Source: an uncultured Planctomycetota bacterium (GTDB lineage Bacteria; Planctomycetota; Planctomycetia; Isosphaerales; Isosphaeraceae). From it: a DNA stretch of 64,000 nucleotides. Under the pieces are notes generated by a model that saw only the letters and a list, made by a program, of their open reading frames with translations, did no database searches and was not told the DNA's origin. The stretch covers positions 320,001-384,000 of the forward strand of contig CAWGMQ010000010.1 of the NCBI GenBank assembly GCA_963823665.1, read 5' to 3'. The stretch's first letter is position 1. Every line of letters begins with the position of its first letter. This document shows, piece after piece, positions 40,462-64,000 of the stretch. Both the position numbers and the translations under genes were made by a program.

Positions 40462-40826
40462 GGGGGCGAACCAGGATCGACCGGATGTCTGACGCGACTG
40501 GTGGCGTGCCGAGGTTGGTCAGCGGGCCTCGTAAAAAGCAGACCAAAACTTTAAGTGCCAACAGCAATGTTGCACTCCGTCTCGCTGCCTAAAAAACAGC
40601 AACGGCCTCGCGCCGCGTCTTCGCCCGAGAGACGCGGCCGGGGACGCTAATTCGGGATCGCTCGAGCCTAACCGCCGGTTGCGGCTCGGGTTAAATTCAT
40701 GACTGGCTACGCCGAATAGAACCCTGCCGATCGGGGTCTCAAGGCCGACAATCAAACGATCGGATACGCACGTAGAGGCCGTCGTTGATGCTTCTCGGGA
40801 CGCGGGTGCAATTCCCGCCGCCTCCA
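40462..40826 (+). ncRNA. ssrA: tmRNA
   Basis: 5' GGGGGCG pairs with 3' CGCCTCC-A with a G3.U pair; T arm GCGGGTGCAATTCCCGC; tag reading frame ANSNVALRLAA* at 40557-40592. Confidence 0.96.
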
Positions 40827-40833
40827 CTATCTG

Positions 40834-40866
40834 ACCCGGCTTGCGGAATCGCAAGCCGGGTTTTTT
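40834..40866 (+). terminator. intrinsic terminator after ssrA
   Basis: ACCCGGCTTGCG-GAAT-CGCAAGCCGGGT followed by a T run. Confidence 0.85.
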
Positions 40867-40918
40867 CATGGATTTACATCAATGCCATAGGCTGCGAAAA
40901 GACTTACGGAAACGCACT

Positions 40919-40963
40919 GTGTCAGATAACGTGTCAGATAAAGGGCTTGAAGGTGTCAGATAA
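40919..40963 (+). repeat. three direct repeats GTGTCAGATAA, candidate integrase arm-type sites
   Basis: Exact copies at 40919, 40931 and 40953; inverted partial copy TATCTGAC at 40828-40835. Confidence 0.75.
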
Positions 40964-41016
40964 GAGCCGGTAACATGGTCCCGTTTGGTGGACAGAGACC
41001 CAGATGGACCAAAATC

Positions 41017-42714
41017 ATGGCGACACGCAAGCGTGATCTCCGGCCGGATGCCAAAGGGCGTTATCGCCCGTACATCGGGTGGTATCAAGGTATCAACGAC
41101 GACGAAGAAAGGAGGCAGCCTCGGTTCAACCTCGGCACCGATCTGAAAGAAGCCGAGCGACGGCTCACGAGGATCAGGGAGCTTTACGAGGATAACTGCC
41201 GAGCGGTCAATCGGGACGGGTGGTCGACACAGGCGCTTGGATTCGCAAAAGAGATCGCTCGGGGTGACCGGCGTATTGTGTACCCGACATTCTCGGATGT
41301 GATCGACCAGGACTACCCGCTGCTCGAATTCGCCCAGATGCATCACAACATCCGGGACATGTACCCCTCTGTCGAGTTCGTCGCAGATCCGCAACTCTAC
41401 AGCGAGTCGCTTGAACTCAATAAGAAAAATGTCTCCGAGCGTCTGAGATTACTAGAAGGCGAGCTTCGGCAAGAGGGTTTCCTTCCGCCGAACGCTGAAC
41501 TTCCACACGAAATTATCCCCGGCACGCTACACGAAGCCCTCAGCGCCTACATGCAGGATATTCAGAGGCATAACGTTGCTCCGGGAACCAGCGAAACGAC
41601 AAGCTATGGTCTGCGAAGGCTGGAACGGATCGAGACGTTCAGAGAACACCATCCTGACATCGACCTGCATTCACTAAACTACGACGAGTGCAAAGCGATG
41701 GTTGACTACTGGCGTAGCCGTCCTCCTCGGAAAGACGGCAAGCCGTCGAGCCATGCCAACTCCCGGCATAATGTCGGAGAGTTGATGCGGTTCTTTCGCT
41801 GGCTCGACTCGTCTTCGGCGTTTGGCTGGCAGATGCCAAGGACGCTGGAACGAGTGGAACGCAAGGTTCCGAGAACTGATGGCGAGCGGCGGCTCTCGGC
41901 GATCACGAAGGAAATTTATACTGTCCATGAACTTGCAGAAATAAACCGCCACGCCACGCCCGTTGAACGGCTATTGCTCTATCTGGGACTGAATTGTGCG
42001 ATGGGTGCTGCGGAACTTGGGCGACTGGTCCAGTGCGACTTTTTCCTTCGCCAACCCCATGAGCTTGCTGACCGTCTGCACTTTCAATCGACACCCGAAG
42101 ACTCGTTCGCCCGATTCCTACGTCCCAAGACGCAGGTTTTCGGTGAGTGGCTCCTTTGGGCCGAGACCGTGCAGATGGTCGAATGGGGTCTGAACGAATC
42201 CAGACGCCTCAAGTCCGACGTACTCTTCGTGTCTGAACGTGGACAACCCTGGTATCGGGAACGAACTCAGAATCCGCACTCGAAGTTCACAAACGTTTGG
42301 GACAGATTGATTCGTCGAGTGCAAAAGTCGGACTCTGGGTTCCGACGCCTGCCGGTAGGGACATTGCGGGATACGCTTCCTGATCTGCTTCGCCACCGAT
42401 GTACCGACGAGATTGCGTCATTGTCGCTGGCGCACGGCTCCCCGTTCCACGGGGACAGCCTCCTGGAATGCTATGCGGGCAGGCCGTTCGGGCGATTGCA
42501 CACGGCCTTGAGGGAGATTCGTGCCTACTTCGACCCAGTCTTTGCTGCCGCTCCTGCTGATTCGACCGAGGAGGGAAAGCACTATCTGCCGATCGCTGTT
42601 CACGAGAAGGTCCGAGCGTTGATCGCCGAGGGCAAGACCGCACCCCAGATTGCCAGGGAATGCGGTGTCTCAGCGATGACCGTGTATCGAGCGATGGGAC
42701 GTTACGACTACTGA
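41017..42714 (+). CDS. atypical tyrosine recombinase/integrase with C-terminal HTH
   Basis: LGLNCAMGAAE (box I-like), RPKT, GTLRDT, LAHG, ECY; C-terminal APQIARECGVSAMTVYR; next to ssrA. Confidence 0.8.
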   Translation: MATRKRDLRPDAKGRYRPYIGWYQGINDDEERRQPRFNLGTDLKEAERRLTRIRELYEDNCRAVNRDGWSTQALGFAKEIARGDRRIVYPTFSDVIDQDYPLLEFAQMHHNIRDMYPSVEFVADPQLYSESLELNKKNVSERLRLLEGELRQEGFLPPNAELPHEIIPGTLHEALSAYMQDIQRHNVAPGTSETTSYGLRRLERIETFREHHPDIDLHSLNYDECKAMVDYWRSRPPRKDGKPSSHANSRHNVGELMRFFRWLDSSSAFGWQMPRTLERVERKVPRTDGERRLSAITKEIYTVHELAEINRHATPVERLLLYLGLNCAMGAAELGRLVQCDFFLRQPHELADRLHFQSTPEDSFARFLRPKTQVFGEWLLWAETVQMVEWGLNESRRLKSDVLFVSERGQPWYRERTQNPHSKFTNVWDRLIRRVQKSDSGFRRLPVGTLRDTLPDLLRHRCTDEIASLSLAHGSPFHGDSLLECYAGRPFGRLHTALREIRAYFDPVFAAAPADSTEEGKHYLPIAVHEKVRALIAEGKTAPQIARECGVSAMTVYRAMGRYDY

Positions 42715-42798
42715 TTTTCTTTGAAACCGACACCGTCTAGAAGGGCGTTCGACCAATCAACGTGGTTGGTCCTGAAACCCTCTGATAACGGTGTCTCA

Positions 42799-48367: not shown

Positions 48368-48738
48368 TGACATGGAAGAGTTCCTGCCACCAGACTGCGT
48401 TTTTTTCGGCGGCGGATTTTCCGGACCTCGACTTTCTGGTGATTCTTGTAGCCCCCTGCGGAAAGCTCGGAAGTTTGAAGTAACAAATAAGGAAACCACC
48501 TCGTAACTGTTCCACCCGCCCCCCATCGGTATCCTTTTTTTCACAAATAAACCTGGAATTGTTGCTTCAAAAACTACGGTACAGACCCGCCCTCGTGGTG
48601 CCCTCTCAACTCTCACACATATCTCCTTGGTGTCAATTGGTAGCCTGATTTCCCCGCTCCTTGCTGTCGTCTAGGTGCAGGTGATCCTGCCGCCCGGTCA
48701 ACCTCAAGAATCGACTGAATAATGTTCAGCCGATTGCG

Positions 48739-49344
48739 TTACTCGGCGCTGTGCGTATGGCTCAGTACCCGGTAGATCGTTGGCCGAGAGAGTCCGGTAA
48801 TGCGGGCGATTTTGGCGATCGGCGTCCTCGCCGCTTTCATCTCTTGGATCGCACTGACTTGCTCATCGGTAACCCGCCATCGCCAACCCTTCTCGCTCCC
48901 GCCCCAAGTTTTGCCTTTCCGCCTGGCAACCTCTTGCCCGGCGTGAATCCGCTCTCCCCTGACCTCCGTCTCATACTCAGCGACCGATGCAAGAATTCGG
49001 GCGTGAAGCCGCCCGGCCGGTGATGAAAGAGTGAACCCGTCCTTGAGAGAGACGAGATCGACTTTCCTTTCCTGGAGTTCGTCAAACAACTGGCAAAGCC
49101 CTTGGGTCGTTCTCCCCAAACGATCCAGCCGCCAGACCACGATGCGGCTAAGTCGGCCGGCTCGCAATTCCGCCAGGAGCCGATCCATACCCGGTCTGTT
49201 CATCGTGCGCCCGGTGAACGTGTCTCGGAACCACTCAACGGGACCATCATGAGCTTCCACCCACCGTTCCAGGTCGGGCAACTGGCTGGCGTGGGTCTGA
49301 TCTCGATGGCTGACCCGGACGTAGTTGGCGGTGATCTTGGACAT
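48739..49344 (-). CDS. serine recombinase (resolvase/invertase)
   Basis: YVRVS, RPG, VWRLDRLGR, C-terminal HTH LSRPTIYR. Confidence 0.95.
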   Translation of the reverse strand: MSKITANYVRVSHRDQTHASQLPDLERWVEAHDGPVEWFRDTFTGRTMNRPGMDRLLAELRAGRLSRIVVWRLDRLGRTTQGLCQLFDELQERKVDLVSLKDGFTLSSPAGRLHARILASVAEYETEVRGERIHAGQEVARRKGKTWGGSEKGWRWRVTDEQVSAIQEMKAARTPIAKIARITGLSRPTIYRVLSHTHSAE

Positions 49345-49470
49345 CTATGTGAGACCCGAATTGTAAACTGTCGATTACAAGCGACACGATGCGCCGACTC
49401 TGACTATGAGATCCCGTTTTTTCCAGCGTCTGGACGAGCCGTTTTGGAGTATAGTGAGACGTTACACTTT
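49345..49470. promoter_or_regulatory. candidate res site
   Basis: TTGTAA-N8-TTACAA palindrome at 49361-49380 and two GTGAGAC half-sites directly upstream of the resolvase. Confidence 0.4.
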
Positions 49471-49523
49471 CAGCTTGTCTGAATTGATCGGGCAGGCATC
49501 GCTTCCTGCCCTTGTCGTTGGTG

Positions 49524-49745
49524 TCATTCTGCCGGCGTACCGCTCCAGGTGATGTGACAGTTGTTGATGAACCGGCAGATCCAAGGGCCACCCTTGCCCT
49601 TTTGTAGTGCTTGGAACACCACGTCTCCATCGTGGTAAGCCTTGGCTGTTCCACCAGACTTGTCGTGTTCCACATAGCAGCCTTTGCTTACTGCATCACG
49701 CAGGATCGATTCGACTGCGTTGGTCGTCAAAAGTGCGACTGGCAT
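49524..49745 (-). CDS. hypothetical protein
   Basis: 73 aa MPVALLTT...; stop codon lies inside the junction motif. Confidence 0.6.
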   Translation of the reverse strand: MPVALLTTNAVESILRDAVSKGCYVEHDKSGGTAKAYHDGDVVFQALQKGKGGPWICRFINNCHITWSGTPAE

Positions 49746-49798
49746 AGGTCTTTCTTCTGGTAAGAGGGGCGTCGTTCCCAACGCCCCCTTCACCGGTG

Positions 49799-50050
49799 TC
49801 ACTTTTTATGCGGCTCGAAGCCGTAGTAGAACCGAGGACTGTGTTGGAAGAAGAGACTGCCCTTTTGGTTGTCGGACTTCCTTGTCACCACCACGACTGG
49901 TGCCATGAATCCGATGACGTCGAAGTCATCGGACAACTTGGACGTGTTCCACACTTGCCCGTGCTTGGCTTCCAAGTACTCCCTAGAGCCGGGTTCGGCA
50001 TTGATCTCGGCAACCATTTCCTTGCGGATCGACTCGGTTGAATCGGTCAT
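49799..50050 (-). CDS. hypothetical protein
   Basis: MTDSTESIRK..DFDVIGFMAPVVVV..FQHSPRFY; AAGGA RBS; stop codon in motif. Confidence 0.7.
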   Translation of the reverse strand: MTDSTESIRKEMVAEINAEPGSREYLEAKHGQVWNTSKLSDDFDVIGFMAPVVVVTRKSDNQKGSLFFQHSPRFYYGFEPHKK

Positions 50051-50135
50051 ACGTATTCCTTTCGGGTTGAAGGGCGTTGATCTCACATCGCTCTCGACGG
50101 TGTCAGTTTGAAACGGGACGGAACGGATCGCCGGT

Positions 50136-50438
50136 TCAATATTCCTCGGGCCTCAAAGTCGTCGTGCAATAACGGAGACCGACCTCGTTGACCGCCTCGG
50201 TGATGACCCAGAGGCGCTCCCCCTTTCGGGTCACATACGCCGACAGGATTCGGCTTCCATTGATCAACGCCGCATCGTTGGCCTGGCGATCCTCTTCGTC
50301 GAGGTCGCCCCAATCGCCGGTGACGTGCCTGGCGAGGAACTCGCCCGCCGTTTGACCGGCATTCTGAAGGGCTTCAAGGGCACCAGGCGTGGCGACGATC
50401 CGCCCGATGCTGAATTTCTTGGTCTCATTGGGACTCAC
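50136..50438 (-). CDS. plasmid/ICE-type conserved small protein
   Basis: GRIVATPGAL..RHVTGDWGDL..N..RILSAY..LWVITE..PEEY, a pattern common on mobile elements. Confidence 0.8.
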   Translation of the reverse strand: MSPNETKKFSIGRIVATPGALEALQNAGQTAGEFLARHVTGDWGDLDEEDRQANDAALINGSRILSAYVTRKGERLWVITEAVNEVGLRYCTTTLRPEEY

Positions 50439-50528
50439 TTTGTCTCTCCTGAGTTGGACTTGTCGTTGTTTACGGTTTGAAAGGCGGTGTCGGGTGGGAT
50501 GCTGCTACCACCGCCTACCCGTGACTTG

Positions 50529-50964
50529 TTAGCAGTCGGCGTATTCGCTCTCGTTTGGTTCACCGTGCAAGGATCGGCCTCATCCTCGGCGTCGATCTGT
50601 GACCAATATTCAGCCAGGGTGAGCGCTTCATGGCGGGCTTGGTCTTCGGTCGCAATCCGTCAGTAGTTCACCACGGAAGAGCATGCCGTCGTCGCCCAGG
50701 GCGTAGCCGATCACGAACCGACCATGAGTCAGCCTGAACATCAGGGCGATGGAGCCGTCGTGAAACTGCCGAATGATCTTCGCTGCGACAGGCGAGCATC
50801 GTGCTGCCGTCCCAGCGGGTCAGGCTGATGAACCCATGACGGTGGCGGGTGTAACCCGTTACATTGCGACCATTTATCGATGAGCCGAAGGCGGCGAAGA
50901 CATGACCGTTATGGGTTACGATCCCGATCTCAAGTTGCCCACGCCGTTCGCACTTTGTCTGCAT
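50529..50964 (-). CDS. hypothetical protein with apparent frameshifts; end approximate
   Basis: GGAGG RBS; coding-like sequence continues in shifted frames (IGYALGDDGMLFRGEL, EYWSQIDAEDE). Confidence 0.5.
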
Positions 50965-51012
50965 GGTGATCCTCCCGTTGAGGTGTTGTTGGTTACGGGA
51001 GGATCGGCGGTG

Positions 51013-51949
51013 TCAATTGCTGCGTTGCTTGGCGAGCAGGCGGAAGAACGAAGCCCGGCTCTTGCCGGTGACACGGCACCAAAATGCCTGTTGATCACTT
51101 ACAGAACTTGGGAAATGTTCGATGGCTTGCTCAAGAGTGCGAAGTTCTTGAACCTTGGCGTCGATTCGGCGTGATGTGTCTTCCTTGTGGACCAGGCTCT
51201 TTAGTTGCGTGAGTACCAAGTGTCGCCAGTCGAGAACCCTCTGATCGGGCGTAGAGAACTTTCTTGAAGGACGGTTCCAGCAACCGCATCGAAAGCGCCC
51301 GGTCGTCGCCGTTGCGTTCGATAAAATCGACCACCTCCAGACAATCGCCTGGACTCAAAGATTCAAAGCCCGCCAATGCAATTCGTCGCATCAACTCCAG
51401 AACCTCTTCCCGGCTCGCTTCCAGCGAGAAGATATCGACTCGGGATAACACGGCTTTGAAGGCGTCGTTGCGCTTCGGGACGATATTGGCACAAAATATG
51501 AGCCTGCTCTCGAAGACAAATGAAGCAGGCAAGTCATCCAACTGGCTTGACGAGTAGGTCAAGATGCGGGGAGTACCCCACAATGCCGACCGTAACAGTC
51601 CGAGGTGCGCCATCGAACTGAAGATGCTGTCAACGTCGTCAAAAAAAATCACTTTGCCCTGACGGTTATGGTAGAGGCATGCGTATAAGCTTAGAGGGGT
51701 TATGTGACTGTTCACAAGAATCGGTAATACGCCTTCGTCGGCAAGCGTGCGAACAACAGTCCGTGATTTTCCAAGGCCCCCCGTTGAGCCATACACGAAC
51801 AGCCCCACGCTCATGCCACGTGCCAACAACCGAACGTGGTGCGCCAAGAGGTCCTGGCGTTGCTCAAGGGCGGTTAGCGGTCCCTCGTCTGTGACTAAGT
51901 TGGCGGTATCGTCTTGGATTTGCGTGATCAGGTTCAAAGTGGTCTGCAT
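51013..51949 (-). CDS. P-loop ATPase with C-terminal HTH-like segment, frameshift near 51238
   Basis: GSTGGLGKS Walker A, FFDDVD Walker B; shifted frame ends TGKSRASFFR and stops inside the motif. Confidence 0.75.
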
Positions 51950-52003
51950 GGCGATGGTCCGAGTTAGATTGAAAGGGTGTTCCTCTCAGCCCTTTCGTCG
52001 GTG

Positions 52004-52183
52004 TCAGGCGGCGTGCTGGACTCGCCGGATGATCAACGGGCGACGAACAGTGGTGGGCAATTCCTTTGTCAATTCCCGCCTCTCCCGAACGTGTGAGGGG
52101 ACAGGAACGGAAACGGCGATGGCAGCTTGACGGCGGACAACCAAGGCTTCAGCGGGCGATCCGGGGCGAATCTTGATCAGCAT
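52004..52183 (-). CDS. hypothetical 59-aa protein
   Basis: Manual translation MLIKIRPGSPAEAL..RRVQHAA*; GGAG RBS; stop codon in motif. Confidence 0.5.
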   Translation of the reverse strand: MLIKIRPGSPAEALVVRRQAAIAVSVPVPSHVRERRELTKELPTTVRRPLIIRRVQHAA

Positions 52184-52279
52184 CTCTCTGACTCCAGGGG
52201 TGATTTCCTCACACCCCTTTCGTCGGTGTCGATCGGAGGATTCTGGGGGGCGTTCGTTTCGCCCCCCGTGTCTCCGTTG

Positions 52280-53172
52280 TCACCCAGGCGTTTCACCGAA
52301 AGACTTATCCCAGTACTTGGCCATCTGGTCGTCCGACTTCTTACCCGCCAAGTAATCCAGCACATACGAGGCAAGTTTGTGTCCCGGATCGGCAGGACCG
52401 GTCTTACCTTCCAGGAACGCCCTCAATTGCTTGAGGTTCCTCGTAACGGGTCCACCGTGACCGGTTGCCTCATGGTCCTCCTGACGTTTTTCTTTGATCT
52501 TGGCGGCCGTGACTTTTCCGCCACTGGACGCAACTTCGTCGAATGTCTTGACTTGTTTGTCGGTCGGCACTTTGGTCAATTCCAAAGCAGCCGATACGGG
52601 GGTTTTCCCTTTCGCCACACTTTCTTGGATATGCGTGGGCAACATCACGAGGTTGAGCAGGTTCGAGAGCCACTTCTCAGACCGCTTGAGCCGTCCCGAG
52701 ACTTGCTTGAGGGTTAAACCATAGTCCTCGGTTAGTGACCGAACTGCATGGGCCAACTGAATCGGTTTGGGGTCTTCCCGTTGTATGTTCTCACTAATGT
52801 TGACGAGTGCTGCCTCGGCATCGGAGAGGCGGGAAATCGAGTATTTAATCTTGAAATCGGGACATTCGCCACTCTCGATCAGCCAGAGGGCTGCCCGCAT
52901 ACGTCGAAACCCGCCGATGACTTCCAATCGACGATCAGGAAGGGGACGGACAAGGATCGGATTCAACTGCCCGCTGGTGCCGTCTTCGGTGTCGTTTGAC
53001 CCTTTCTTTGGGAGCATATCCCTGCCAAGTTCGACGAGTGCATCGTCGATCGGCGGTTCTTCGCCACCACGGCTCAGATTCTTCTTCCAGTCGATGACGA
53101 GCGCCTTGGATCGACAAGGAAAATGTCAGAACGTGTAACCTTGTGGTCGCCGGTGTCTGCTGCAAAAGCCAT
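52280..53172 (-). CDS. ParB/Spo0J-like protein, frameshift near 53107
   Basis: GQLNPILVR, GGFRRMRA, SENIQRED, HTH; AGGAG RBS before ATG 53172. Confidence 0.8.
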
Positions 53173-53449
53173 AAATCAGTCTCCTGGGTTGTGGTTGTTT
53201 GTCTCGTTTGTCGTCGGTGTCAGTTTTCTAGTGGATTCGTCGTCGCCTTGGTTCGTTGCTGTGTTGAGCCTGCGGTGTCGAGATCGCCGCTCCCTGGATC
53301 GGAATCGGCGATGACTTTCTGGTCGATTGGCGTTGATTTGCATGGATGACGCTCCGTCCAACATTCGTAATGTGTGTGAATAGTCCGAGGCGGTTTGATG
53401 GCTGTCCCGTTCGCACTTCCTTCGACGGTGTCAGTTGATCTGCCTGGGG

Positions 53450-53743
53450 CTAGGGACGGCGAATTTCACCCGCCGAGGTGTAGCCGTAAATCTTGCGGAG
53501 GAACTCGATGGCCTTTGGATCGAGATGAGCTTGGTCGTTGGCGGTGCCGATGATGGTGCCGTCTCGCAGAAATGTGAGATGCCAACCGGCGTGTTCGTTT
53601 ACCTGGACGGCATCCAGGCTGGGGTCGGCAGCGAAGGCTTCCCTGGCAACCTGGCTCATCAGTTCATTGCCCCACTCTGACGGTCCCAAGTAGATCCAGA
53701 GCTTCTTCGCATAGACGTTTCCATTTCGCTCGATGAGCGCCAT
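53450..53743 (-). CDS. hypothetical protein
   Basis: MALIERNG..., GGAG RBS. Confidence 0.6.
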   Translation of the reverse strand: MALIERNGNVYAKKLWIYLGPSEWGNELMSQVAREAFAADPSLDAVQVNEHAGWHLTFLRDGTIIGTANDQAHLDPKAIEFLRKIYGYTSAGEIRRP

Positions 53744-53830
53744 TACGGGCTCTCCGGTGTTGGTCGAGATCATCAGATTCGTCCAATTTTTGTATTTGTG
53801 GTCGTTGGCTCCGTACGGTGATCGTCGGTG

Positions 53831-54232
53831 TCAGTCCGTGTCCCAATCTGAGAGTTGTCTTGGGTCGATGCCTTCGGCGGGCATCCCCTCGCCGTGGTAT
53901 TTCACCGGGAAAGGCACTTCCGACCGTTCCGCACCGTGGATCAGCAAGTGATCCAGGTCGATAACTCGCCCTGACCCGTCAAAGTGGCGGTCGTTCTCGG
54001 GATAGTCAGAGAGGTCGCTATCGGGGACGTGAAGTTGATGACCGTAAGTTGCGTCATCGCTGAGTTCGTCGATGGCATCGGACATGGAGTCGGCTTCGAC
54101 GATGAGGAATAGCGGCGTGTAAGAACCGCCGAGTTCAAGGAGCCACGTCTTGCCGAACCAGCCATCGGGGTTGAGTACGGGGATGTCGGTGAGGTCATGT
54201 CCGTGGAACTTGCATGAGGCGGCGATCTTCAT
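53831..54232 (-). CDS. acidic hypothetical protein
   Basis: MKIAASC..., GGAG RBS, stop codon in motif. Confidence 0.7.
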   Translation of the reverse strand: MKIAASCKFHGHDLTDIPVLNPDGWFGKTWLLELGGSYTPLFLIVEADSMSDAIDELSDDATYGHQLHVPDSDLSDYPENDRHFDGSGRVIDLDHLLIHGAERSEVPFPVKYHGEGMPAEGIDPRQLSDWDTD

Positions 54233-54284
54233 GGGTTTGCTCCGTCTGGGTGAGTGTTCTTCACACCCACCCCTGCGGTGTCGG

Positions 54285-54896
54285 TTAGCCTCCCTCTTCA
54301 ACCTGCACATATCCCAGGGCATCAAACGCTGCCCTCAGATCGTCTTCTGACGGATACCCGCCCTGATCGTCACGGTTCTCCACACTGCTGGAGCGGTTCT
54401 CGCTCAGCCAGGAATAGACTTCACACTCCCAGCCATCAGGAAGTTCATACTCGTGCTTGACCCGCCATGCGGCATCATTGATGTTTTCGAGGGTCGCTTC
54501 GTATTCACGCCGGGAGTAATCCTCTTCGCTGAGAATCGGGTATCCATCCATTTGTTCGCATAGTTCGTGATAGGTCTTGAACGCTTCCGTAACCTCACCG
54601 TCCCGGTAGACCCTGATGGAAAAACCATCGACGTGACCGACCGCCCAATGACTGTGAGATTCGATCACCACGTCCGGATCGTCTTCGTCCGTGAACGGTT
54701 CCATCGCATCGGCGATGGCATCGGCGTTGGATTGGTCCAGGAGACCGCTGTCACGATTGTGCGTGTAGATGATCGCCCAGTTGTCAGGGTCGTTGAGATC
54801 CCGCTCTCGGTCCCAAACGAAACACTGAAAATGCTGCCAGTTGCCAGCCGCTTCCTTGGCGGCATCTTCGACGGTTAGTTCACCAAGTGCGGTCAT
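54285..54896 (-). CDS. acidic hypothetical protein
   Basis: RDSGLLDQSN..HWAVGHVD..YPILSEEDYS; GGAG RBS before ATG 54896. Confidence 0.7.
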   Translation of the reverse strand: MTALGELTVEDAAKEAAGNWQHFQCFVWDRERDLNDPDNWAIIYTHNRDSGLLDQSNADAIADAMEPFTDEDDPDVVIESHSHWAVGHVDGFSIRVYRDGEVTEAFKTYHELCEQMDGYPILSEEDYSRREYEATLENINDAAWRVKHEYELPDGWECEVYSWLSENRSSSVENRDDQGGYPSEDDLRAAFDALGYVQVEEGG

Positions 54897-54992
54897 CTTG
54901 ATCTCCGTTGGAAGGGGTTTTTTCACGCCCCTTTCGGTGGTGTCGGTCATGCGTGATCAGAGACAACGAAGTCGCAGGCGAGATGCGCTCTG

Positions 54993-55223
54993 CTATTCGA
55001 TTCGCACAAGCCCGTAGTGCACATTCCGGACTCGCTTGTGGTAGTGCCGGGGCACGCTCTTCCAGGACCCGTCTGGGAACTCGATCTTGATTCGTCCATT
55101 GGCGAATACCTCTGTGACAGTCACTCGCTGTTTCCTGGCCTGCGGGGAAGCGGGAAAGTAGAACGCCGAGTCGCCGAGTTCAGGTAATGCAGCGACTTCC
55201 AGGGTCATTTCACCCACGCTCAT
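54993..55223 (-). CDS. small hypothetical protein
   Basis: GGAGG RBS, 76 aa. Confidence 0.55.
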   Translation of the reverse strand: MSVGEMTLEVAALPELGDSAFYFPASPQARKQRVTVTEVFANGRIKIEFPDGSWKSVPRHYHKRVRNVHYGLVRIE

Positions 55224-55507
55224 AACTACCTCCGTTTGAGGGGTAGTTTGCTTTCATGCCCCTCTCGTCGGTGTCGGTTGAGAAGAGACCGAACAGGGAG
55301 CACCGTCGTCGATCCGAGGCGGCTTCGAGCGTTCGCATGGGCAGCAGAATACCGCCCGCCGCTGGCCAGTCGGGAGCGATTCACGCTGCTTCTTGATCGC
55401 AGAAGCCGAGCCGCAACTTGATCGACTTGGGTGTCCCTGTCAGGTTGCCCACGATCGGGACGATTCGCACGGCGGTGTCAGTTGTCGACACTCTGTTCTC
55501 GCAGGGG

Positions 55508-56449
55508 TCATGCCTGGACAAGCTCTTCCGTTTGCTCGGGCACGTCCTCGGGCTTACGTGAGAAATCGAGGATGTAGGAAGCGGCTTTACTGGCTTGTGC
55601 GGAAGCCAAAAATATAAAACGAGGGTCGCCCTTCATGCCTCTGAGCCAAGAGGCGAGGTATGCCGTGTGGTTCGACAAGTCCTCGGAAGACGGGACGTTC
55701 AACTCACGGCAGACATAAACCCCTCCCAGTTCGGCGATCAACTCTCCGAAGCCGTACGAGTTTTCCTTGATCTTCCGGCTCCAATCGAGCCGTGACGGGT
55801 GTTCCGTGGCATGAACACATTCATGGAAAGCAGTGGCGTAGTACTCATTCAGCGACTCGAACGTCGCTTTGGACGGCATCTGGATGCAATCTCGTTTTGA
55901 GTCGTAGAACGCTCGTCCCCCGCCATAACGAAGGCTGATGCCCATGCCACACGTCGCAGCTTCGAGAGCTTCCTCTGCGGGCAGGTAATCAATTGTTAAG
56001 GGTCCGGTGCCTTCGGCCTGCTCGGCACAGAGATGGGCGAGTCCTTCCGTCTGGTCTGCGTTAAAAATCGTATACATTCTGAGTACGAAGAACCGGTCTT
56101 CGGTTTCATCACCGTTCTCGTCTCGGTCGGTCTTCGTGACCGGCGTCCAGAAGCAGATCTGCGTTCCCCAACGCCCAGGTGGCACATGACTTGGACGAGG
56201 CAGCACTCTGCCTTTCAAGTTCTTGATCTGTTGAAAGGTTCCCCACCAGTGGGAGGTAAACCCATGCGTCTGCGAGGCGAGGTCCAGCAAGATAGGATTC
56301 AAGCCCCTGTATGCCCGCTTGCTGATAATGTTGCGTTGAACGGAGTTATTGGATCGCCAAGGTCTTCGCCACGGAGGCAGCGACCCGCTCTCAAGTGCGG
56401 CGATGATCGTGTTGGTGATCTGCTCCCGAATCTGATTCTGGTTCGCCAT
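55508..56449 (-). CDS. ardC: ArdC-like antirestriction / ssDNA-binding protein
   Basis: ITNTIIAALE..PWRRPW, YRGLN, WGTFQQ, IFNADQ, HECVH, ELIAELG. Confidence 0.92.
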   Translation of the reverse strand: MANQNQIREQITNTIIAALESGSLPPWRRPWRSNNSVQRNIISKRAYRGLNPILLDLASQTHGFTSHWWGTFQQIKNLKGRVLPRPSHVPPGRWGTQICFWTPVTKTDRDENGDETEDRFFVLRMYTIFNADQTEGLAHLCAEQAEGTGPLTIDYLPAEEALEAATCGMGISLRYGGGRAFYDSKRDCIQMPSKATFESLNEYYATAFHECVHATEHPSRLDWSRKIKENSYGFGELIAELGGVYVCRELNVPSSEDLSNHTAYLASWLRGMKGDPRFIFLASAQASKAASYILDFSRKPEDVPEQTEELVQA

Positions 56450-56839
56450 GACTGCTCACCTCCGGGTTGGACGTGGTAGGTAACTCACGTCCCCTTCGTC
56501 GGTGTCAGTTCAAAAAAGAGGATGATTCCCTGAGATCGGCGAGAAGTAAGAAAGGGCTTGTCTCACAATGTGTGTGAGACGCTTTCGCTGCGATGGGATC
56601 GCCGGATAGAAACTCTGGCAAGAGAATGAGTTGAGTGGCGATGGTCTAGGTCGCACGTCAATTCAGGTACGCCAACCGGTTCCCTAGATATAGAGAAGGC
56701 GACCGCCGCAGCACGTACGCAAACCGACACCGACGTCATAGACTAGGGGGGAGCGTCGAAGAATCATTCATCCTCAGACGATTTGTAACCGCACCATGTC
56801 CGAGGTGAAAAACGCTAACACCGAGGCAAGCGGCGATCC

Positions 56840-57040
56840 GTGATCATGAGGCATCTGGACAAGTTCTTCCGGACACGGCAGATTGAGAAAGGCTTTTCCC
56901 CTCGTCAACTGGTCGCACTGGCTGGTTCCACAAACTTGAACAAAGGCACCAACCTCATCCAGAAGTTCGAGTCCGGTGGCACGATCGCACCCGAACCGTT
57001 CACCAAGCTGTGCTCAATCCTGGAGGACGTCCGTCGTTGA
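56840..57040 (+). CDS. small XRE-like HTH protein, divergent from ardC
   Basis: KGFSPRQLVALAG..IQKFESGG. Confidence 0.5.
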   Translation: MIMRHLDKFFRTRQIEKGFSPRQLVALAGSTNLNKGTNLIQKFESGGTIAPEPFTKLCSILEDVRR

Positions 57041-59104: not shown

Positions 59105-62100
59105 TCAATAGATCTGAATCAACGAATTCTGAGAGGTCACCGAATAGTTGCTCGTACTTCTCGATCCGGCATTTCGTGCTTGTACCAACTGTCCGAGCGC
59201 CTCGCCCAGCTTGACCTTCGCTAGCTCGAAGCGGCGGGTCAGCACATCGGGATAGGTTTCACGAAGGCGGATGTAGTTCGGGTCGTCGGATCTCGGCTGC
59301 ATGTCCGAGACATCGACGAGCTTCAGGGCACCGGCGAAGGGGATTTTGTGGCGTTTGAGGCGACGGATCGCCTGGTCGGAAAAGTCAAGCGGCATGACCT
59401 CACCATCATCAAACAACCCACGGTTCGCAGTTTGGGCAAGCTCGACGTAAGCCGCTTGAAGGAGTAGCTGCCGGATGGTTTCCTTGAGCGAGGCGACGTG
59501 CGCCTTCTGGTTCTGCTCGGCAACCAGGGCGTCTTGGGCACCGTACCGCTCGATCGCTTCGAGGAAGCGTCCCCGTATCTGAGCCAACTGGTCGGCTGAG
59601 AGCTTCGGCGGGGAGGCGTCATCCAGTTGCTTTCGCAGTGAGGTGAGGGAAAGGATGGGCTCGGTTTCACCATCCTTCATTGGTCCGTAATACCCGACCA
59701 AGGGAACTGGCTCTCCCACCTGACACCGTGCCAGCAACCCGTCCGATTCCCTCGCAGTCGGTGGCTCTACAGCTTGCAAGATCTCGTCCAAGAGTTCGGA
59801 GCCGAATGACAGAAGGGTCAGCGTATTGGGGTGATCGTCGAATAACTCGGGATTGAACGTGACCTCTTGGTCCTCTCCGTTCCAGTCCAGCAGGTGCGCC
59901 CTGGGATCGATGGATGCGGACGGAACCGTGAGCCCAGGGCCTTCGATTGAATGAGGGCCCGTTCCATTTCCGTCAGCGTCAGGGGCACGGGCAGATCCGC
60001 AGGGGCTTCCACGGCGTCACCGGAAATTCTGTCGAGCCCAATGCCGGTGGTTTCCCCCTGCCCGACCATGCGGTTGATTTCTTCCACCTGGTCCCGAATC
60101 AGAGCCTCCCGCTGTTCGTCACCAGCCATGACCGCCGACTCGATAGCACGGGCGACCCGACTGAGGATCGGCTGAAGTTCGCCCACGACGTTCTCGAACG
60201 AACCGATTCGGTCGTCGAGGCGCTGGTAGATCGTTGCTTCGACGGTCTGATCGTAAAAGTAGTTGCGGACCCAGACCCGTGAGTAAACCTGTCCGATGCG
60301 GTCGATACGTCCGATCCGCTGCTCGACCCTCATGGGGTTCCAGGGCATGTCGTAATTGATGAGAACGCCGCAAGTCTGGAGGTTGAGACCTTCGGATGCG
60401 GACTCGGTGCAGAGGAGGATCTTGACCTCCGTGTGCTCCCGGAAGGCGTTCTTGATGTTCTCCTTGCTAGTCCCCGACCAGGCTTTGCCATTCCACTGCT
60501 CGCCGCCCCGGCCGCTGTAGCAGGCGACCTGGGCACCGTAAACCTGACGGAGCTTGCCACGCAGGTAGTCCATTGTGTCGGTGTATTGAGTGAACACGAT
60601 CACCGAGTCCCGCCACTTCAAGAACTCGTTGAGCTGCTGGACAAGCCGCTGGAACTTGCTGTCGGTGCCGATAGTTCTCAGCCCGGTAAGAAAGTCCTCG
60701 ACGTACTGGATCTCGCCTTGGAAGAGCTTGCGGGTCTCCGAGGCCGCAAACGCAAAGGTCTCCGTCACGTCCGATTCGAGGTCGTCTTGGTCGGTGTCGT
60801 CGTCGTCGGTCAACGATGTGTCCATGCCTTTCAGGAACTCAAGCCGACGCTCTAGGCTCCGCTGGATGGCGTAAAAGCTACTCGTCAAGCGGCGGCGGTA
60901 GACTGTCATGATGAAGCCGAGTCCTTTCCGCTCGGCTTCATATTTCTGGTAATTATTGCGGATGTACTCTTCGATCTGGTCGTAGAGGGTCTTCTCCTCC
61001 GACCTCATTTCGATCCATTCGGACTTGGGGTCACGGTAGGGAACGCTTTCCTTGAGAAGCCCCTTCTCGTGATAGAGCCGCAGCAGACGCCGGGTGTTGC
61101 GGAAGACGAACCGCTGGAGCGGCGTGTGCGCCCGTGCTACCGCCACCAGGAGCTTGCGTCCGTTAGCGTCGAGCCCCCTGATGGTCGGCTCGGGGTTGGA
61201 CGACCACGGGAGGTTCTTGATTTGATCCCAGATGACCGGTCCCACCGACCGCTCGGCGTCTTCGCAGAAACGATCGTCCCACTGCCCGCCCGTGCCGAAA
61301 AAATCTCGCAACATGGCGAGCAAAAACACCCAATCCATGTCAGCGAAAGGAAGGCGGAACTGCTGGAAATAGCGGACGAAGTTCTCCTCCCCGGCACCCC
61401 AGCGACCGCCCATCCCCAGGAGCTTCAGGAGATCCCAGACCTCAATCGGGTCGATCTGCATCGGGGTCGCCGTCAGTAGTAGCAACCCCTTTGTGCGATC
61501 CTTCAGTCCCGGCTTGGCGTTTGTGCCCTGGAGCAGTTCGAGGAGGCGGTTGGGGCGGTACTGCTCCCGGTTCAGGAAGTCTTTGCGACGGGCGTGGTGC
61601 GCCTCATCGACGACGATCAAGTGCCAGGGTTGAGCCTCGCCCAACTGATCCTGGCGTTCACGCCGCTTCGCTAGGTGACTGGACGCCAGGAACACCGGAT
61701 GGGCGTCCCATGGGTTGGTTCCCGTGGGCACCTTTAGCGCCCTGCCGAATACGTCGTAAAATGCGCTACCGTCGTATCGGGGGATGTTCAGGACGAACTT
61801 CTCGTAGAGTTCCTCCTGCCACTGAACCAGGACGCTCTTCGGAACCAGGATGAGCGCTCGCTTGACCCTCCCCGAGAGAATCAACTGGCGGATCGCCAGA
61901 CCCGCTTCCACAGTCTTTCCCAGACCCACTTCGTCGCACAGCATGAACGAGTGGGGAAACCGTTCGATCACCGCATCGCTCACCTTGATCTGGTGGGGCC
62001 ACGGTTGGACCGTGCTTGTTGCCATTCCGAGACGATGGGCGTTCAGGAGGTGAGGCGCATCACGAAGGAACTGGAAGACGATCCGCTCCTTCTGCGTGGC

Positions 62101-62868
62101 GTCGATCGGCGGTCGAACGGGTGGTGGTTTGACCGGAGCCTCGGGCTCGCCTACCTCTCGGGTGGGCGGCGTCATGGTGCGGTACTTGAGAAGCTCTAGC
62201 TTGACCGCCTCGGGTATCGGTAAGGCGATCCAGTCTTTCTCCTTGCCCTTCCAAAGCTTGTCGAACTTGATCTGGATCTGCCCGAGAAAGGGCTGGCTGG
62301 TGTCCCAAGAACGGAAGACCATGAAGGACTCGTAGTTGTCCTCTAGGGCGGTGGCGGACTCGTTTACACTGCCCGAGAAGCCGACTTGATTTCCCTCGGC
62401 GTCGGTGAAAAGCCCCTCTTTGGGGTGATAGTAGCTTTCCGTCTGAGTGGCGGGCAAGGGCGTCCGATTTTCGTCCGTGGGCAGGACGACCTTGATCTCC
62501 ATCTGACCGGAGCCGACGAGCCACGCCAAGGCTTCAAGGCGTTTCTGGACGAAGGTACTCTCCGGGATCGCCCGGTACGTCCTCACCATGTTCAGCGTCA
62601 GAGTGGCTTCCAGGTCAGCTTCGCCCTTGCGGATCGCCTCAACGTCCTCATCGGAGAGTTGCGCTCCGCACAACAGCCGCATCTTGCCGCCGTTTGCGAT
62701 GAGACGTGTCACACCCGCCGCCGCCACGGCAAGCATGGTGCTGGAGAAGTAGCCTGCGGAGCGGTCGTAGCGGATCGAGGCGGCAAGAGCCGGGATGAAG
62801 AAGGCACCGAGCCGGTCATCACTCGGCCCGTAGGCGATGTGAGGTGGGAGATCCCGGAGGTTCGTCAT
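59105..62868 (-). CDS. PLD-nuclease + SNF2 helicase fusion, frameshift near 59898
   Basis: HPKEG..GSVN (PLD-like), DEVGLGKT, DEAHH, TATP, EGLNLQ, QRIGRIDR; continues into ORF 59105-59791. Confidence 0.9.
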
Positions 62869-62874
62869 CGCAAA

Positions 62875-63426
62875 TTATCCGCTCTCATCAACGGGAATCG
62901 CATCGGAGGTTGGCTTAGCCTTGACCCTTCGCCAGTGCTTGAGTCCGTCAAGAATTCTCAGCAGATTGGACGACGCCCCTGAATCTCCCTGTGCGTAGAG
63001 CACCTTTGCGAGTAGCGGAATGATCTCTTTGAATTCGTCCAGGTCAAAGTCGGACTTCATGTCGTTAATTGCAGCAGCAACCACGAGCCATCCGCCGTGC
63101 CCTTTTCCTGGGGCGGTATGTTCCAAGGTCGGATAGCGGGGAGATTCCGGTGAATCCGGCCGCAATGGCACCCCGCTCAACATGCAGCGAAAGCAGCGAG
63201 CATCGCTATCCCAAGAAGTGCGGAGCACGTCGAACCATTCACGACGAGATGGGATCTCGACGATTCTATCTCGCTTGCTACCTCGCCTCTTGTTGAACGA
63301 ACGAAAGACCAGATTGCCACACGGCTCGCATAGTGCAATCCGGGCACCCTTTCCCTTCCCAACGGAACGGCTGCGCTCTACTTCCGGGGTTGCGCGAATA
63401 GCGCAAGTATTCTGGGACTTTGGCAC
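62875..63426 (-). CDS. putative HNH endonuclease
   Basis: CMLSG..TLEH..INDMK beta-beta-alpha pattern; start uncertain. Confidence 0.55.
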   Translation of the reverse strand: MPKSQNTCAIRATPEVERSRSVGKGKGARIALCEPCGNLVFRSFNKRRGSKRDRIVEIPSRREWFDVLRTSWDSDARCFRCMLSGVPLRPDSPESPRYPTLEHTAPGKGHGGWLVVAAAINDMKSDFDLDEFKEIIPLLAKVLYAQGDSGASSNLLRILDGLKHWRRVKAKPTSDAIPVDESG

Positions 63427-63428
63427 CC

Positions 63429-64000
63429 TTACTCCTCCGACTCTTCGTCCTCGGCGTCTTCGTCAAGTTCCTCGTCGGCAACGTCGCCTTCCTCTTCATC
63501 GACATCGGTCATGCCTGGCAACAAACCAGTCTTTTCGATCTTGGGTATCTCCTCCTCGGGCGGTGCGGGGAGGTCTTCCCAGACCAGCAACCGCAGAGCA
63601 TCGAGAATGGTCATCTCGGGGCGCAGAAACTTACCGTCCTTGCCTCGGGTCGTGGGAATCGCCTGCATCGCCGCCTGCACGAGTGCCTTGATCCGGCTGT
63701 CGTTCCGCAGCCCAAGTCGGTCGATGAAGACTTGGCACGCTTTCGAGCCGTCCTCCTCGTAGACCAGCATCGCCGTATGCAGGGCGTCGATCAGATGCGT
63801 GAATGACTCGGATTCCGGGTCCACCACGCCCTTCTTGCGCCGGGTCGTCGGGAGAGCGATCGTGACGTTCTTGCCTTTCTTCGTGACGAGCCGTTTGTCA
63901 CGGATAAGATGCGCTTCCAAGTCGAGCCCGAGAGCCAAGGCGAGCTTGCGAGCCTCGTCGGCGGGAAATTCCTGGGCACGGAAGGCGTCCCACGCCATGA
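63429..64000 (-). CDS. 3' end of a probable DUF1156-type DNA methyltransferase
   Basis: AWDAFRAQEFPADEARKLA..LIDALH C-terminus recalled from DUF1156 proteins, upstream of a PLD-SNF2 gene; catalytic motifs lie outside the window. Confidence 0.55.
   Translation of the reverse strand, partial: MAWDAFRAQEFPADEARKLALALGLDLEAHLIRDKRLVTKKGKNVTIALPTTRRKKGVVDPESESFTHLIDALHTAMLVYEEDGSKACQVFIDRLGLRNDSRIKALVQAAMQAIPTTRGKDGKFLRPEMTILDALRLLVWEDLPAPPEEEIPKIEKTGLLPGMTDVDEEEGDVADEELDEDAEDEESEE

What the first reader, a model, noticed from the sequence alone, without database searches (positions are those of the whole stretch)
49505..56510. Array of small genes punctuated by a conserved motif plus hairpin at nearly every junction (cassette-like system)
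Seen: 15 intergenic copies, all on the transcribed (minus) strand, of a motif with consensus YGACACCGACGAAAGGGGYGTGAR. Examples: CTGACACCGACGAAGGGGACGTGAG (core 56501), CCGACACCGACGAGAGGGGCATGAA (55270), CCGACACCACCGAAAGGGGCGTGAA (54939), TCGACACCGACGAAAGGGGTGTGAG (52225), CTGACACCGACGAAAGGGCTGAG (52000), CTGACACCGTCGAGAGCGATGTGAG (50099). In five cases the TGA of TGACACC is the upstream gene's stop codon (49524, 49799, 51013, 52004, 53831), and in one a TAA lies 2 nt before the core (54285). The unit is gene, motif, hairpin, RBS, next gene, and the genes are unrelated (ArdC, ParB-like, ATPase, about ten unknowns). Known analogues are integron cassettes (stop overlapping the core site), CUP repeats before ard genes on IncN plasmids and start-associated repeats in phages, but I do not recognise this sequence as any of them. 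Inference: either recombination sites of a non-integron gene-capture/shuffling array, or a per-gene regulatory or RNA-processing signal for an early-expressed anti-defence region.
Basis: partly seen in the sequence, partly recalled or inferred. Interest (0 to 1): 0.88.

Follow-up and report, generated by a model that had tools for sequence, protein, structure and literature searches.

The report
Island-specific switch box before genes
A family of mobile DNA islands in planctomycete bacteria places its own short sequence tag just in front of most of its genes; the tag looks like an on/off switch read by a still unknown protein, and it also makes it easy to add or drop genes, rather than being a new kind of cut-and-paste site.

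Summary
The repeat is real: 17 YGACACC copies on the transcribed strand in 7.4 kb, 15 at gene junctions. Hairpins are optional (6 of 16 beat shuffles). The array is the ardC-led early region of a tmRNA-integrated island. A marker gene finds such arrays in 41 of 401 genomes of the class. Island lineages use different core variants (AGGCACCTGCTA, GACACCCGCTTG, AACACTCGCTAA and others). Six of these share one geometry: core, 11 nt, YRT, start codon about 52 nt on. The site also precedes backbone and divergent genes (clpX-like, integrase). It recurs inside long genes in the island's own variant. Order is mostly fixed, with gains and losses; one insertion switches at the ribosome-binding site, not the core. 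No recombinase is common to the arrays. Best reading: an island-specific, polar regulon box (promoter or operator), with secondary PeSL/CUP-like gene shuffling; not an integron-like att site. The reader protein was not found. A conserved 160-nt rod-like non-coding unit follows ardC.

The parts
56501..56507 (-). Core copy in the ardC leader; YRT (CGT) at +19; hairpin z -3.6; start 58 nt on
55508..56449 (-). ArdC anti-restriction gene (ArdcN + MPTase), first gene of the array
   Evidence: ArdC found in 42 of 57 regions
55276..55480 (-). ORF-less unit: core copy (55474-55480), small hairpin, then a ~160-nt rod conserved across motif lineages
   Evidence: (z -3.6)
54993..55276 (-). Unit: core (55270-55276), leader, 76-aa unknown gene
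54285..54945 (-). Unit: core (54939-54945), leader, 203-aa marker gene of unknown function (2453 homologues; no clear solved fold)
53831..54283 (-). Unit: core (54277-54283), hairpin with GAAGA loop, 133-aa unknown gene whose TGA overlaps the next core
53450..53833 (-). Unit: core (53827-53833) and 97-107-aa unknown gene
53222..53433 (-). Unit without a convincing ORF, cores at 53427-53433 and 53274-53280; part of it is conserved in 4 other arrays
52280..53222 (-). Unit: core (53216-53222) and ParB-like gene, frameshifted near its start here (whole 297-aa ORF in relatives); in-gene core at 52988-52994
52004..52231 (-). Unit: core (52225-52231) and 59-aa unknown gene
51013..52006 (-). Unit: core (52000-52006) and ATPase-like gene (phrog_1250), in two frames here
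49520..51015 (-). Four further units (cores at 51009-51015, 50486-50492, 50099-50105, 49795-49801) with small unknown genes, then the core at 49520-49526
48739..49344 (-). Serine resolvase, an optional passenger (5 of 57 regions; other arrays have a tyrosine recombinase or nothing here)
48500..48635 (-). Terminal copy (48629-48635) followed by a conserved end segment with AATTCCAGG
56725..56731 (+). Sense copy for the divergent small HTH-like ORF (56843-57040); an AT-rich TATnAT-like hexamer lies beside it on the array strand
42728..42748 (+). Core-N11-CGT copy before the clpX-like backbone gene; a copy also precedes clpX-like genes in G196, G344 and G320
40913..40957 (-). Three TTATCTGACAC direct repeats, probable integrase arm sites; their likeness to the core is judged coincidental
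40462..42714 (+). tmRNA (40462-40827) and tyrosine-type integrase with C-terminal HTH (40975-42714): left end of the island

Best explanation
The core is a polar, island-specific DNA box read by a sequence-specific factor, most likely an activator or an unusual sigma-like factor. It marks the start of most island genes. Shown: each leader is core, 11 nt, YRT, an A/C-rich or hairpin stretch, ribosome-binding site, start codon about 52 nt after the core; the box stands in sense orientation before array genes and before backbone genes of the island; island lineages carry different versions. Inferred: on arrival or induction the factor switches on all these genes at once as short transcripts, giving a burst of anti-restriction and other establishment proteins. 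The factor may be supplied by a helper element, since no common regulator was found on the islands. The hairpin would hide the ribosome-binding site or stall read-through RNA. Inferred: because every gene begins with a similar ~50-nt leader, recombination between leaders drops, duplicates or inserts whole leader-gene units, which gives the cassette-like look.
For: YRT starts at exactly +19 in 111 of 153 type-A leaders, 31 of 47 E, 13 of 21 G, 11 of 19 F, 5 of 7 I and 5 of 9 B; median distance to start 52-54 nt. It holds without a hairpin: 15 of 18 unstructured E and 8 of 10 unstructured G leaders. Sense copies precede clpX-like genes in 4 type-A islands, the divergent c32 gene, the G155 integrase and the G334 ParB-methylase gene. 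In 5 genomes the E motif lies almost wholly in island clusters. The 25 non-array matches inspected in G000 (of 28) have no ribosome-binding site behind them, and 24 lie in long open frames. One genome (G065) has two arrays with different motifs, and motif E occurs in three host families. Reversed cores are scarce inside arrays: 3 in 121 kb against 40 in 266 kb of both strands outside. Gains and losses switch at the core or inside the leader. Known parallels: AcaCD boxes on islands activated in trans (PMC4207636, passages); PeSL and CUP recombination (PMC2839356, PMC5371602, passages).
Against: No reader protein was found. The ECF-sigma-like passenger is in at most 14 of 57 regions and was not found in G000. 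The island ECF-kinase pair has nearly the same recognition helix beside E, F and G motifs. An 11-nt spacer is shorter than ECF promoter spacing (recalled). Copies inside genes are enriched in the island's own variant (A 26 observed / 7.2 expected, B 6/0.2, E 10/0.5, G 5/0.3, I 8/1.0, J 19/9.1; D 2/2.4 not enriched), and most lack YRT (3 of 12 have it, read by eye). A pure promoter model does not predict this. The reverse-strand scarcity is weak once composition is allowed for (5-8% of comparable patterns are also absent). Motif tracks gene trees better than host family for ArdC and the marker (11 changes against 15 and 17) but not for AlpA (9 against 8) or c4 (14 against 15); these are neighbour-joining trees without a shuffle control.
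Confidence: 0.47

Rival explanations
1. Stoperator-like silencing: an island-specific repressor binds the asymmetric core in one orientation and blocks elongating RNA polymerase, keeping the toxic early region off in the resident state; fresh hosts lack the repressor and express it briefly.
For: Polar 11-12-bp asymmetric sites in short intergenic gaps, overlapping stop codons, added inside long genes, spaced mostly under 1.1 kb, diverging between lineages like immunity groups. This matches the L5 description in PMC9283540 and PMC6550527 (passages).
Against: It does not explain the fixed YRT at +19 or the fixed 52-nt distance to the start. No repressor common to the islands was found.
Confidence: 0.2
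2. RNA-level signal: core plus hairpin in the transcript acts like a boxA/boxB antitermination site, a processing site or a translational switch.
For: Always on the sense strand. Hairpins centre at +24 to +26, often with GT-GANNA-AC loops, like lambdoid boxB (recalled). A conserved structured non-coding unit follows ardC.
Against: The hairpin is optional (mean z 0.08 in F, -0.35 in B). Neither strand folds better once composition is controlled. Rfam has no match.
Confidence: 0.14
3. Site-specific cassette system: the core is the crossover point of a recombinase that excises and inserts single-gene units.
For: With a shared downstream leader but different upstream unit, identity falls to background just before the core (113 pairs; identical run of 2 nt or less in 106). 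With a shared upstream end it falls after the core (46 pairs) (pairs were chosen on one-sided identity, are not independent, and a few are misclassed). Stop codons overlap the core. A 901-bp insert in L085 is flanked by a 28-bp repeat holding the core. Reversed cores are scarce.
Against: Order is mostly colinear. The c28 insertion duplicates 46 nt of leader and switches at the ribosome-binding site. Copies lie inside genes and before backbone genes. In-array recombinases are optional (tyrosine 27, serine 5 of 57 regions). Integrase arm repeats do not follow the motif.
Confidence: 0.12
4. No reader at all: the core is kept alike by duplication and gene conversion among leaders.
For: Bases +8/+9 are more uniform within arrays than between (0.29 against 0.14; 0 of 2000 permutations). 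Whole leaders and N-termini are duplicated between genes.
Against: Exact 11-12-mers recur inside unrelated coding sequences in the island's own variant and tens of kb from the array.
Confidence: 0.07

Closest known systems
CUP-controlled regulon of IncN plasmids (PMC5371602, passages); Reg576/EGeRS2 and EGeRS1 of pLS20-family plasmids (PMC6294495 abstract; PMC8708921 abstract and part of Discussion)
   Same: Repeated upstream elements in front of ard and other establishment genes; variable gene content; CUP-to-CUP recombination rearranges the region.
   Different: Those are 4-5 long repeats before operons on conjugative plasmids, with canonical promoters or 400-600-bp elements. Here a 7-12-bp core stands before nearly every gene of a chromosomal island and also inside genes, with no -35/-10 consensus and no identified regulator.
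AcaCD boxes of IncA/C plasmids and the islands they activate in trans (PMC4207636, passages)
   Same: An oriented box at a fixed place before genes, also on islands that lack the activator.
   Different: No FlhCD-like activator or helper was identified here; copies are much denser; the sequence varies by island lineage.
PeSLs of T4-like phages (PMC2839356 passages; PMC4122927 first third of text)
   Same: Composite motif plus stem-loop between small unknown genes; recombination between copies gains and loses genes, with crossovers at varied points.
   Different: PeSLs hold strong sigma70 promoters and terminators. Here no sigma70 consensus, no U-tract, optional hairpin.
Stoperators of cluster A mycobacteriophages (PMC9283540, PMC6550527, passages)
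   Same: Many asymmetric ~12-13-bp sites, one orientation to transcription, in short intergenic gaps, diverging between relatives.
   Different: No repressor found; a second fixed element (YRT) and fixed distance to the start codon; not a phage.
Integron attC cassette arrays (features recalled)
   Same: Promoterless-looking single genes, stop codon overlapping a repeated core, variable content.
   Different: No GTTRRRY/RYYYAAC pair, no IntI, largely fixed order, copies inside genes and before backbone genes.

Membership tests
Integron (attC array) | attC with paired R''/R' cores GTTRRRY and RYYYAAC | tested here: not met
   Position profile of 187 leaders shows no such pair; consensus recalled
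Integron (attC array) | Dedicated integron integrase beside the array | tested here: not met
   Island integrase is tmRNA-targeting with arm repeats; in-array recombinases optional
Integron (attC array) | Order reshuffled by insertion at one end | tested here: not met
   Order largely colinear in 25 maps, a few genes moved
CUP / EGeRS establishment regulon | Repeats upstream of ard and other establishment genes | tested here: met
CUP / EGeRS establishment regulon | Element-encoded regulator binding the repeat (ArdK, Reg576) | tested here: inconclusive
   No common DNA-binding gene in 57 regions of up to 20-94 kb; most islands not seen whole
CUP / EGeRS establishment regulon | Located in the leading region of a conjugative element | tested here: inconclusive
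   No transfer genes among the proteins scanned; one relaxase family (PF03432) not found in 5 genomes; other relaxase families and oriT not tested
PeSL | sigma70 -35/-10 promoter consensus in each copy | tested here: not met
   No TATAAT-like column at the expected place
PeSL | Gene gain and loss by exchange between copies | tested here: met
   (comparative only)
PeSL | Mini-circles | not testable with these tools
   Only sparse assembled contigs were available
Stoperator system | Many asymmetric sites oriented with transcription | tested here: met
Stoperator system | Cognate repressor that halts elongation | not testable with these tools
   No candidate found; needs binding and transcription assays
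ECF-sigma promoter | Bipartite -35/-10 with about 16-17-nt spacer | tested here: not met
   Spacer is 11 nt; ECF spacing recalled
Known RNA family | Rfam match for leader or 160-nt unit | tested here: not met

The most novel reading that the evidence does not exclude
A widespread, undescribed family of planctomycete islands runs its genes from a private promoter class (7-12-bp core, 11-nt spacer, YRT) that fits no sigma type I know. It exists as at least eight orthogonal versions, and its reader comes from an unknown helper or an unrecognised fold. The same leaders act as a recombinase-free gene-capture device for anti-defence genes, and the conserved 160-nt rod after ardC is a new non-coding RNA or single-strand DNA signal.
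Probability: 0.25. Interest if true: 0.88.

Novelty: new variant of a known kind. Interest (0 to 1): 0.66.

Why it matters
About a tenth of the sampled genomes of this class carry the marker gene (41 of 401), and most examined copies sit in such arrays. The motif lists, gene by gene, the early and probable anti-defence repertoire of a poorly studied phylum: dozens of small unknown proteins. The natural orthogonal variants give a direct way to find the reader protein and to test how islands tell self from co-resident islands. If the core-N11-YRT unit is a promoter, it is a new geometry; if it is a polar roadblock, stoperator logic extends beyond phages.

Tried and rejected
Integrase arm sites as the motif: the window's arm repeats contain CTGACAC, but G155 has similar arm repeats with motif E, and G344, G061a and G061b have unrelated ones. 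Host regulon: non-array matches are not leaders; a looser leader pattern gave 8 non-array matches against 4 controls, not inspected; the G-type pattern was too loose to tell. ECF-sigma-like passenger as reader: sigma-like by fold (weak, E 0.04) but optional and not found in G000. Island ECF-kinase pair: recognition helix barely varies with motif. Antisense or single-strand DNA folding preference: explained by composition. K-turn and sigma54 readings: considered by eye, not held across copies. Marker and c32 proteins: no informative fold or Atlas hit. Expression and circles: no RNA holder listed; contigs sparse, no joint fixed at a core. Maximum-likelihood trees could not be run; neighbour-joining used. 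First cross-lineage fold of the non-coding unit failed because of 3 false members; they were dropped. Unit calling dropped true copies and was replaced. Literature: searches listed no description of this element. The library lacks most subscription papers and no supplements were read.
Full report
Observation. YGACACC occurs 17 times on the minus strand in 49.4-56.8 kb against 0.16 per kb on that strand elsewhere; the 17-mer search gives 7 matches against 0.34 by chance. Fifteen copies are at junctions. A hairpin beats shuffles in 6 of 16 segments. Further copies lie at 48635 (end of array), 56725 (+) and 42728 (+). Rfam finds only the tmRNA.

Setting. The array is part of an island inserted at tmRNA (40462-40827), with a tyrosine-type integrase, a clpX-like gene, excisionase-like HTH genes and defence-type cargo (DUF499, DUF1156, SNF2-PLD, Mrr). 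Matching arm-like repeats put the right end about 54 kb away, beyond the window. The host is inferred to be a planctomycete: a close homologous array lies in a record titled Isosphaeraceae. Three array genes are frameshifted here relative to relatives; sequencing error and decay cannot be told apart.

Family. The strict pattern hit 6 of 98 genomes of the family and none of the other families sampled. The 203-aa marker gene is in 41 of 401 genomes of the class and 4 of 301 of a phylum sample, gave 68 metagenome loci and has 2453 homologues. Of 57 regions analysed, 51 had the marker called, 42 had ArdC, and 45 of the 51 had an oriented repeat assignable to one of 8 types; one label (L135) is doubtful, and G180 shows a ninth type. 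Variants include AGGCACCTGCTA, GGCACCCCCTAG, GACACCCGCTTG, GACACCGCCCAA, GGACACCT, CGGACCA, TGTACC and AACACTCGCTAA. One variant spans three host families and one genome holds two variants. On neighbour-joining trees the motif needs 11 changes for ArdC and for the marker (minimum 7), host family 15 and 17; AlpA and c4 show no such advantage.

Anatomy. The six types tested share core, 11 nt, YRT at +19, and a start codon at a median of 52-54 nt. YRT persists in unstructured leaders. Hairpins are real in type A (87 of 167 against 76 of 835 shuffles), often with GANNA loops, and show no strand preference; they are weak in B and F.

Not confined to junctions. Copies inside coding sequences are enriched only for the island's own variant (homologous genes are not independent and a few counts may be junction copies). 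In one search, 25 in-gene matches against 8.5 expected included about 7 read-through artefacts. In type B the in-gene copy follows the array's own one-base variant, though the amino-acid change involved also occurs without the motif in L137. Sense copies precede the clpX-like gene in 4 type-A islands, the divergent c32 gene, the G155 integrase and the G334 ParB-methylase gene, up to 40 kb from the array. The motif is not a host regulon. Reversed copies are scarce in arrays, a weak signal after correction.

Gene flux. Order is mostly colinear with gains and losses. Homology usually switches at the core, but the c28 insertion duplicates a 46-nt leader and switches at the ribosome-binding site. 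Tyrosine recombinase (27 of 57) and resolvase (5 of 57) are optional. Integrase arm repeats do not follow the motif. This fits exchange between similar leaders, as for PeSLs (PMC2839356, passages) and CUPs (PMC5371602, passages), better than a dedicated att site. No circles could be sought.

Non-coding unit. The ORF-less unit after ardC (55276-55480) folds as a rod (z -3.6). In 21 non-redundant copies from types A, E and G and unlabelled loci (mean identity 64%, 3 false members dropped), mean z is -4.9 on the sense strand and -4.2 on the antisense strand, the ends pair in 18 of 21, and 13 of 25 consensus pairs show two or more Watson-Crick types. Whether it acts as RNA or as single-stranded DNA is open.

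Mechanism and verdict. Shown: a polar, lineage-specific box with fixed geometry across the island. Inferred: it is read by a specific factor to switch establishment genes on together (0.47), or to silence them like stoperators (0.2; PMC9283540, PMC6550527, passages). RNA-level (0.14), site-specific recombination (0.12) and neutral homogenisation (0.07) are less likely. AcaCD-type activation in trans (PMC4207636, passages) and helper-dependent islands (10.64898/2026.01.13.699239, abstract) are precedents, not evidence. It works like CUP/EGeRS establishment regulons (PMC8708921, abstract and part of Discussion; PMC6294495, abstract) but fails or leaves open the membership tests. Ten literature searches listed no description of it. 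New variant of a known kind; interest 0.66.

Noticed in passing
window 55276-55480 (-); L282, L300, L304, L122: Conserved ~160-nt rod-like non-coding unit right after ardC across motif lineages; no Rfam match.
   Followed up: partly
G000:C10 about 422.4 kb (L089 18377-18760): A second, slightly different full tmRNA gene with the same tag lies about 7 kb beyond the island's right end.
   Followed up: partly
L319 (Streptomyces phage Joe, right end): Early genes, one a distant relative of the marker, are preceded by a repeated GGCAGACAC + GGTTCGAGTCC hairpin and by TGTGACAGTG repeats; no Rfam match.
   Followed up: partly
L116 16380-16940; L154 14075-14560: Array-borne ECF-sigma-like gene exists in a full form and in a form lacking region 4; L085 has both in tandem.
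   Followed up: partly
L279 71-6757: A Hen1/Pnkp RNA-repair gene block without the motif sits inside the G061b array.
   Followed up: no
L134 11151-13785 and 22 other regions: A RuvB-like ATPase, AlpA-like HTH, tyrosine recombinase three-gene module is common in non-A arrays.
   Followed up: no
window 56540-56690 (-) and 49350-49465 (-): GTCTCA/TGAGAC repeats and an AT-rich TATA-like patch upstream of ardC, and similar repeats before the resolvase; possible res sites or origin.
   Followed up: no
window 59818-63998 and L088 2583-9229: PLD-SNF2, DUF1156, DUF499 defence-type locus with an ISL3 insertion.
   Followed up: no
L335, L337, L339-L341: ECF sigma plus Ser/Thr kinase pair recurs beside E, F, G and D arrays.
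   Followed up: partly
L083 4402-4517 (-): 99-bp tandem duplication that includes the reverse core upstream of ardC.
   Followed up: no
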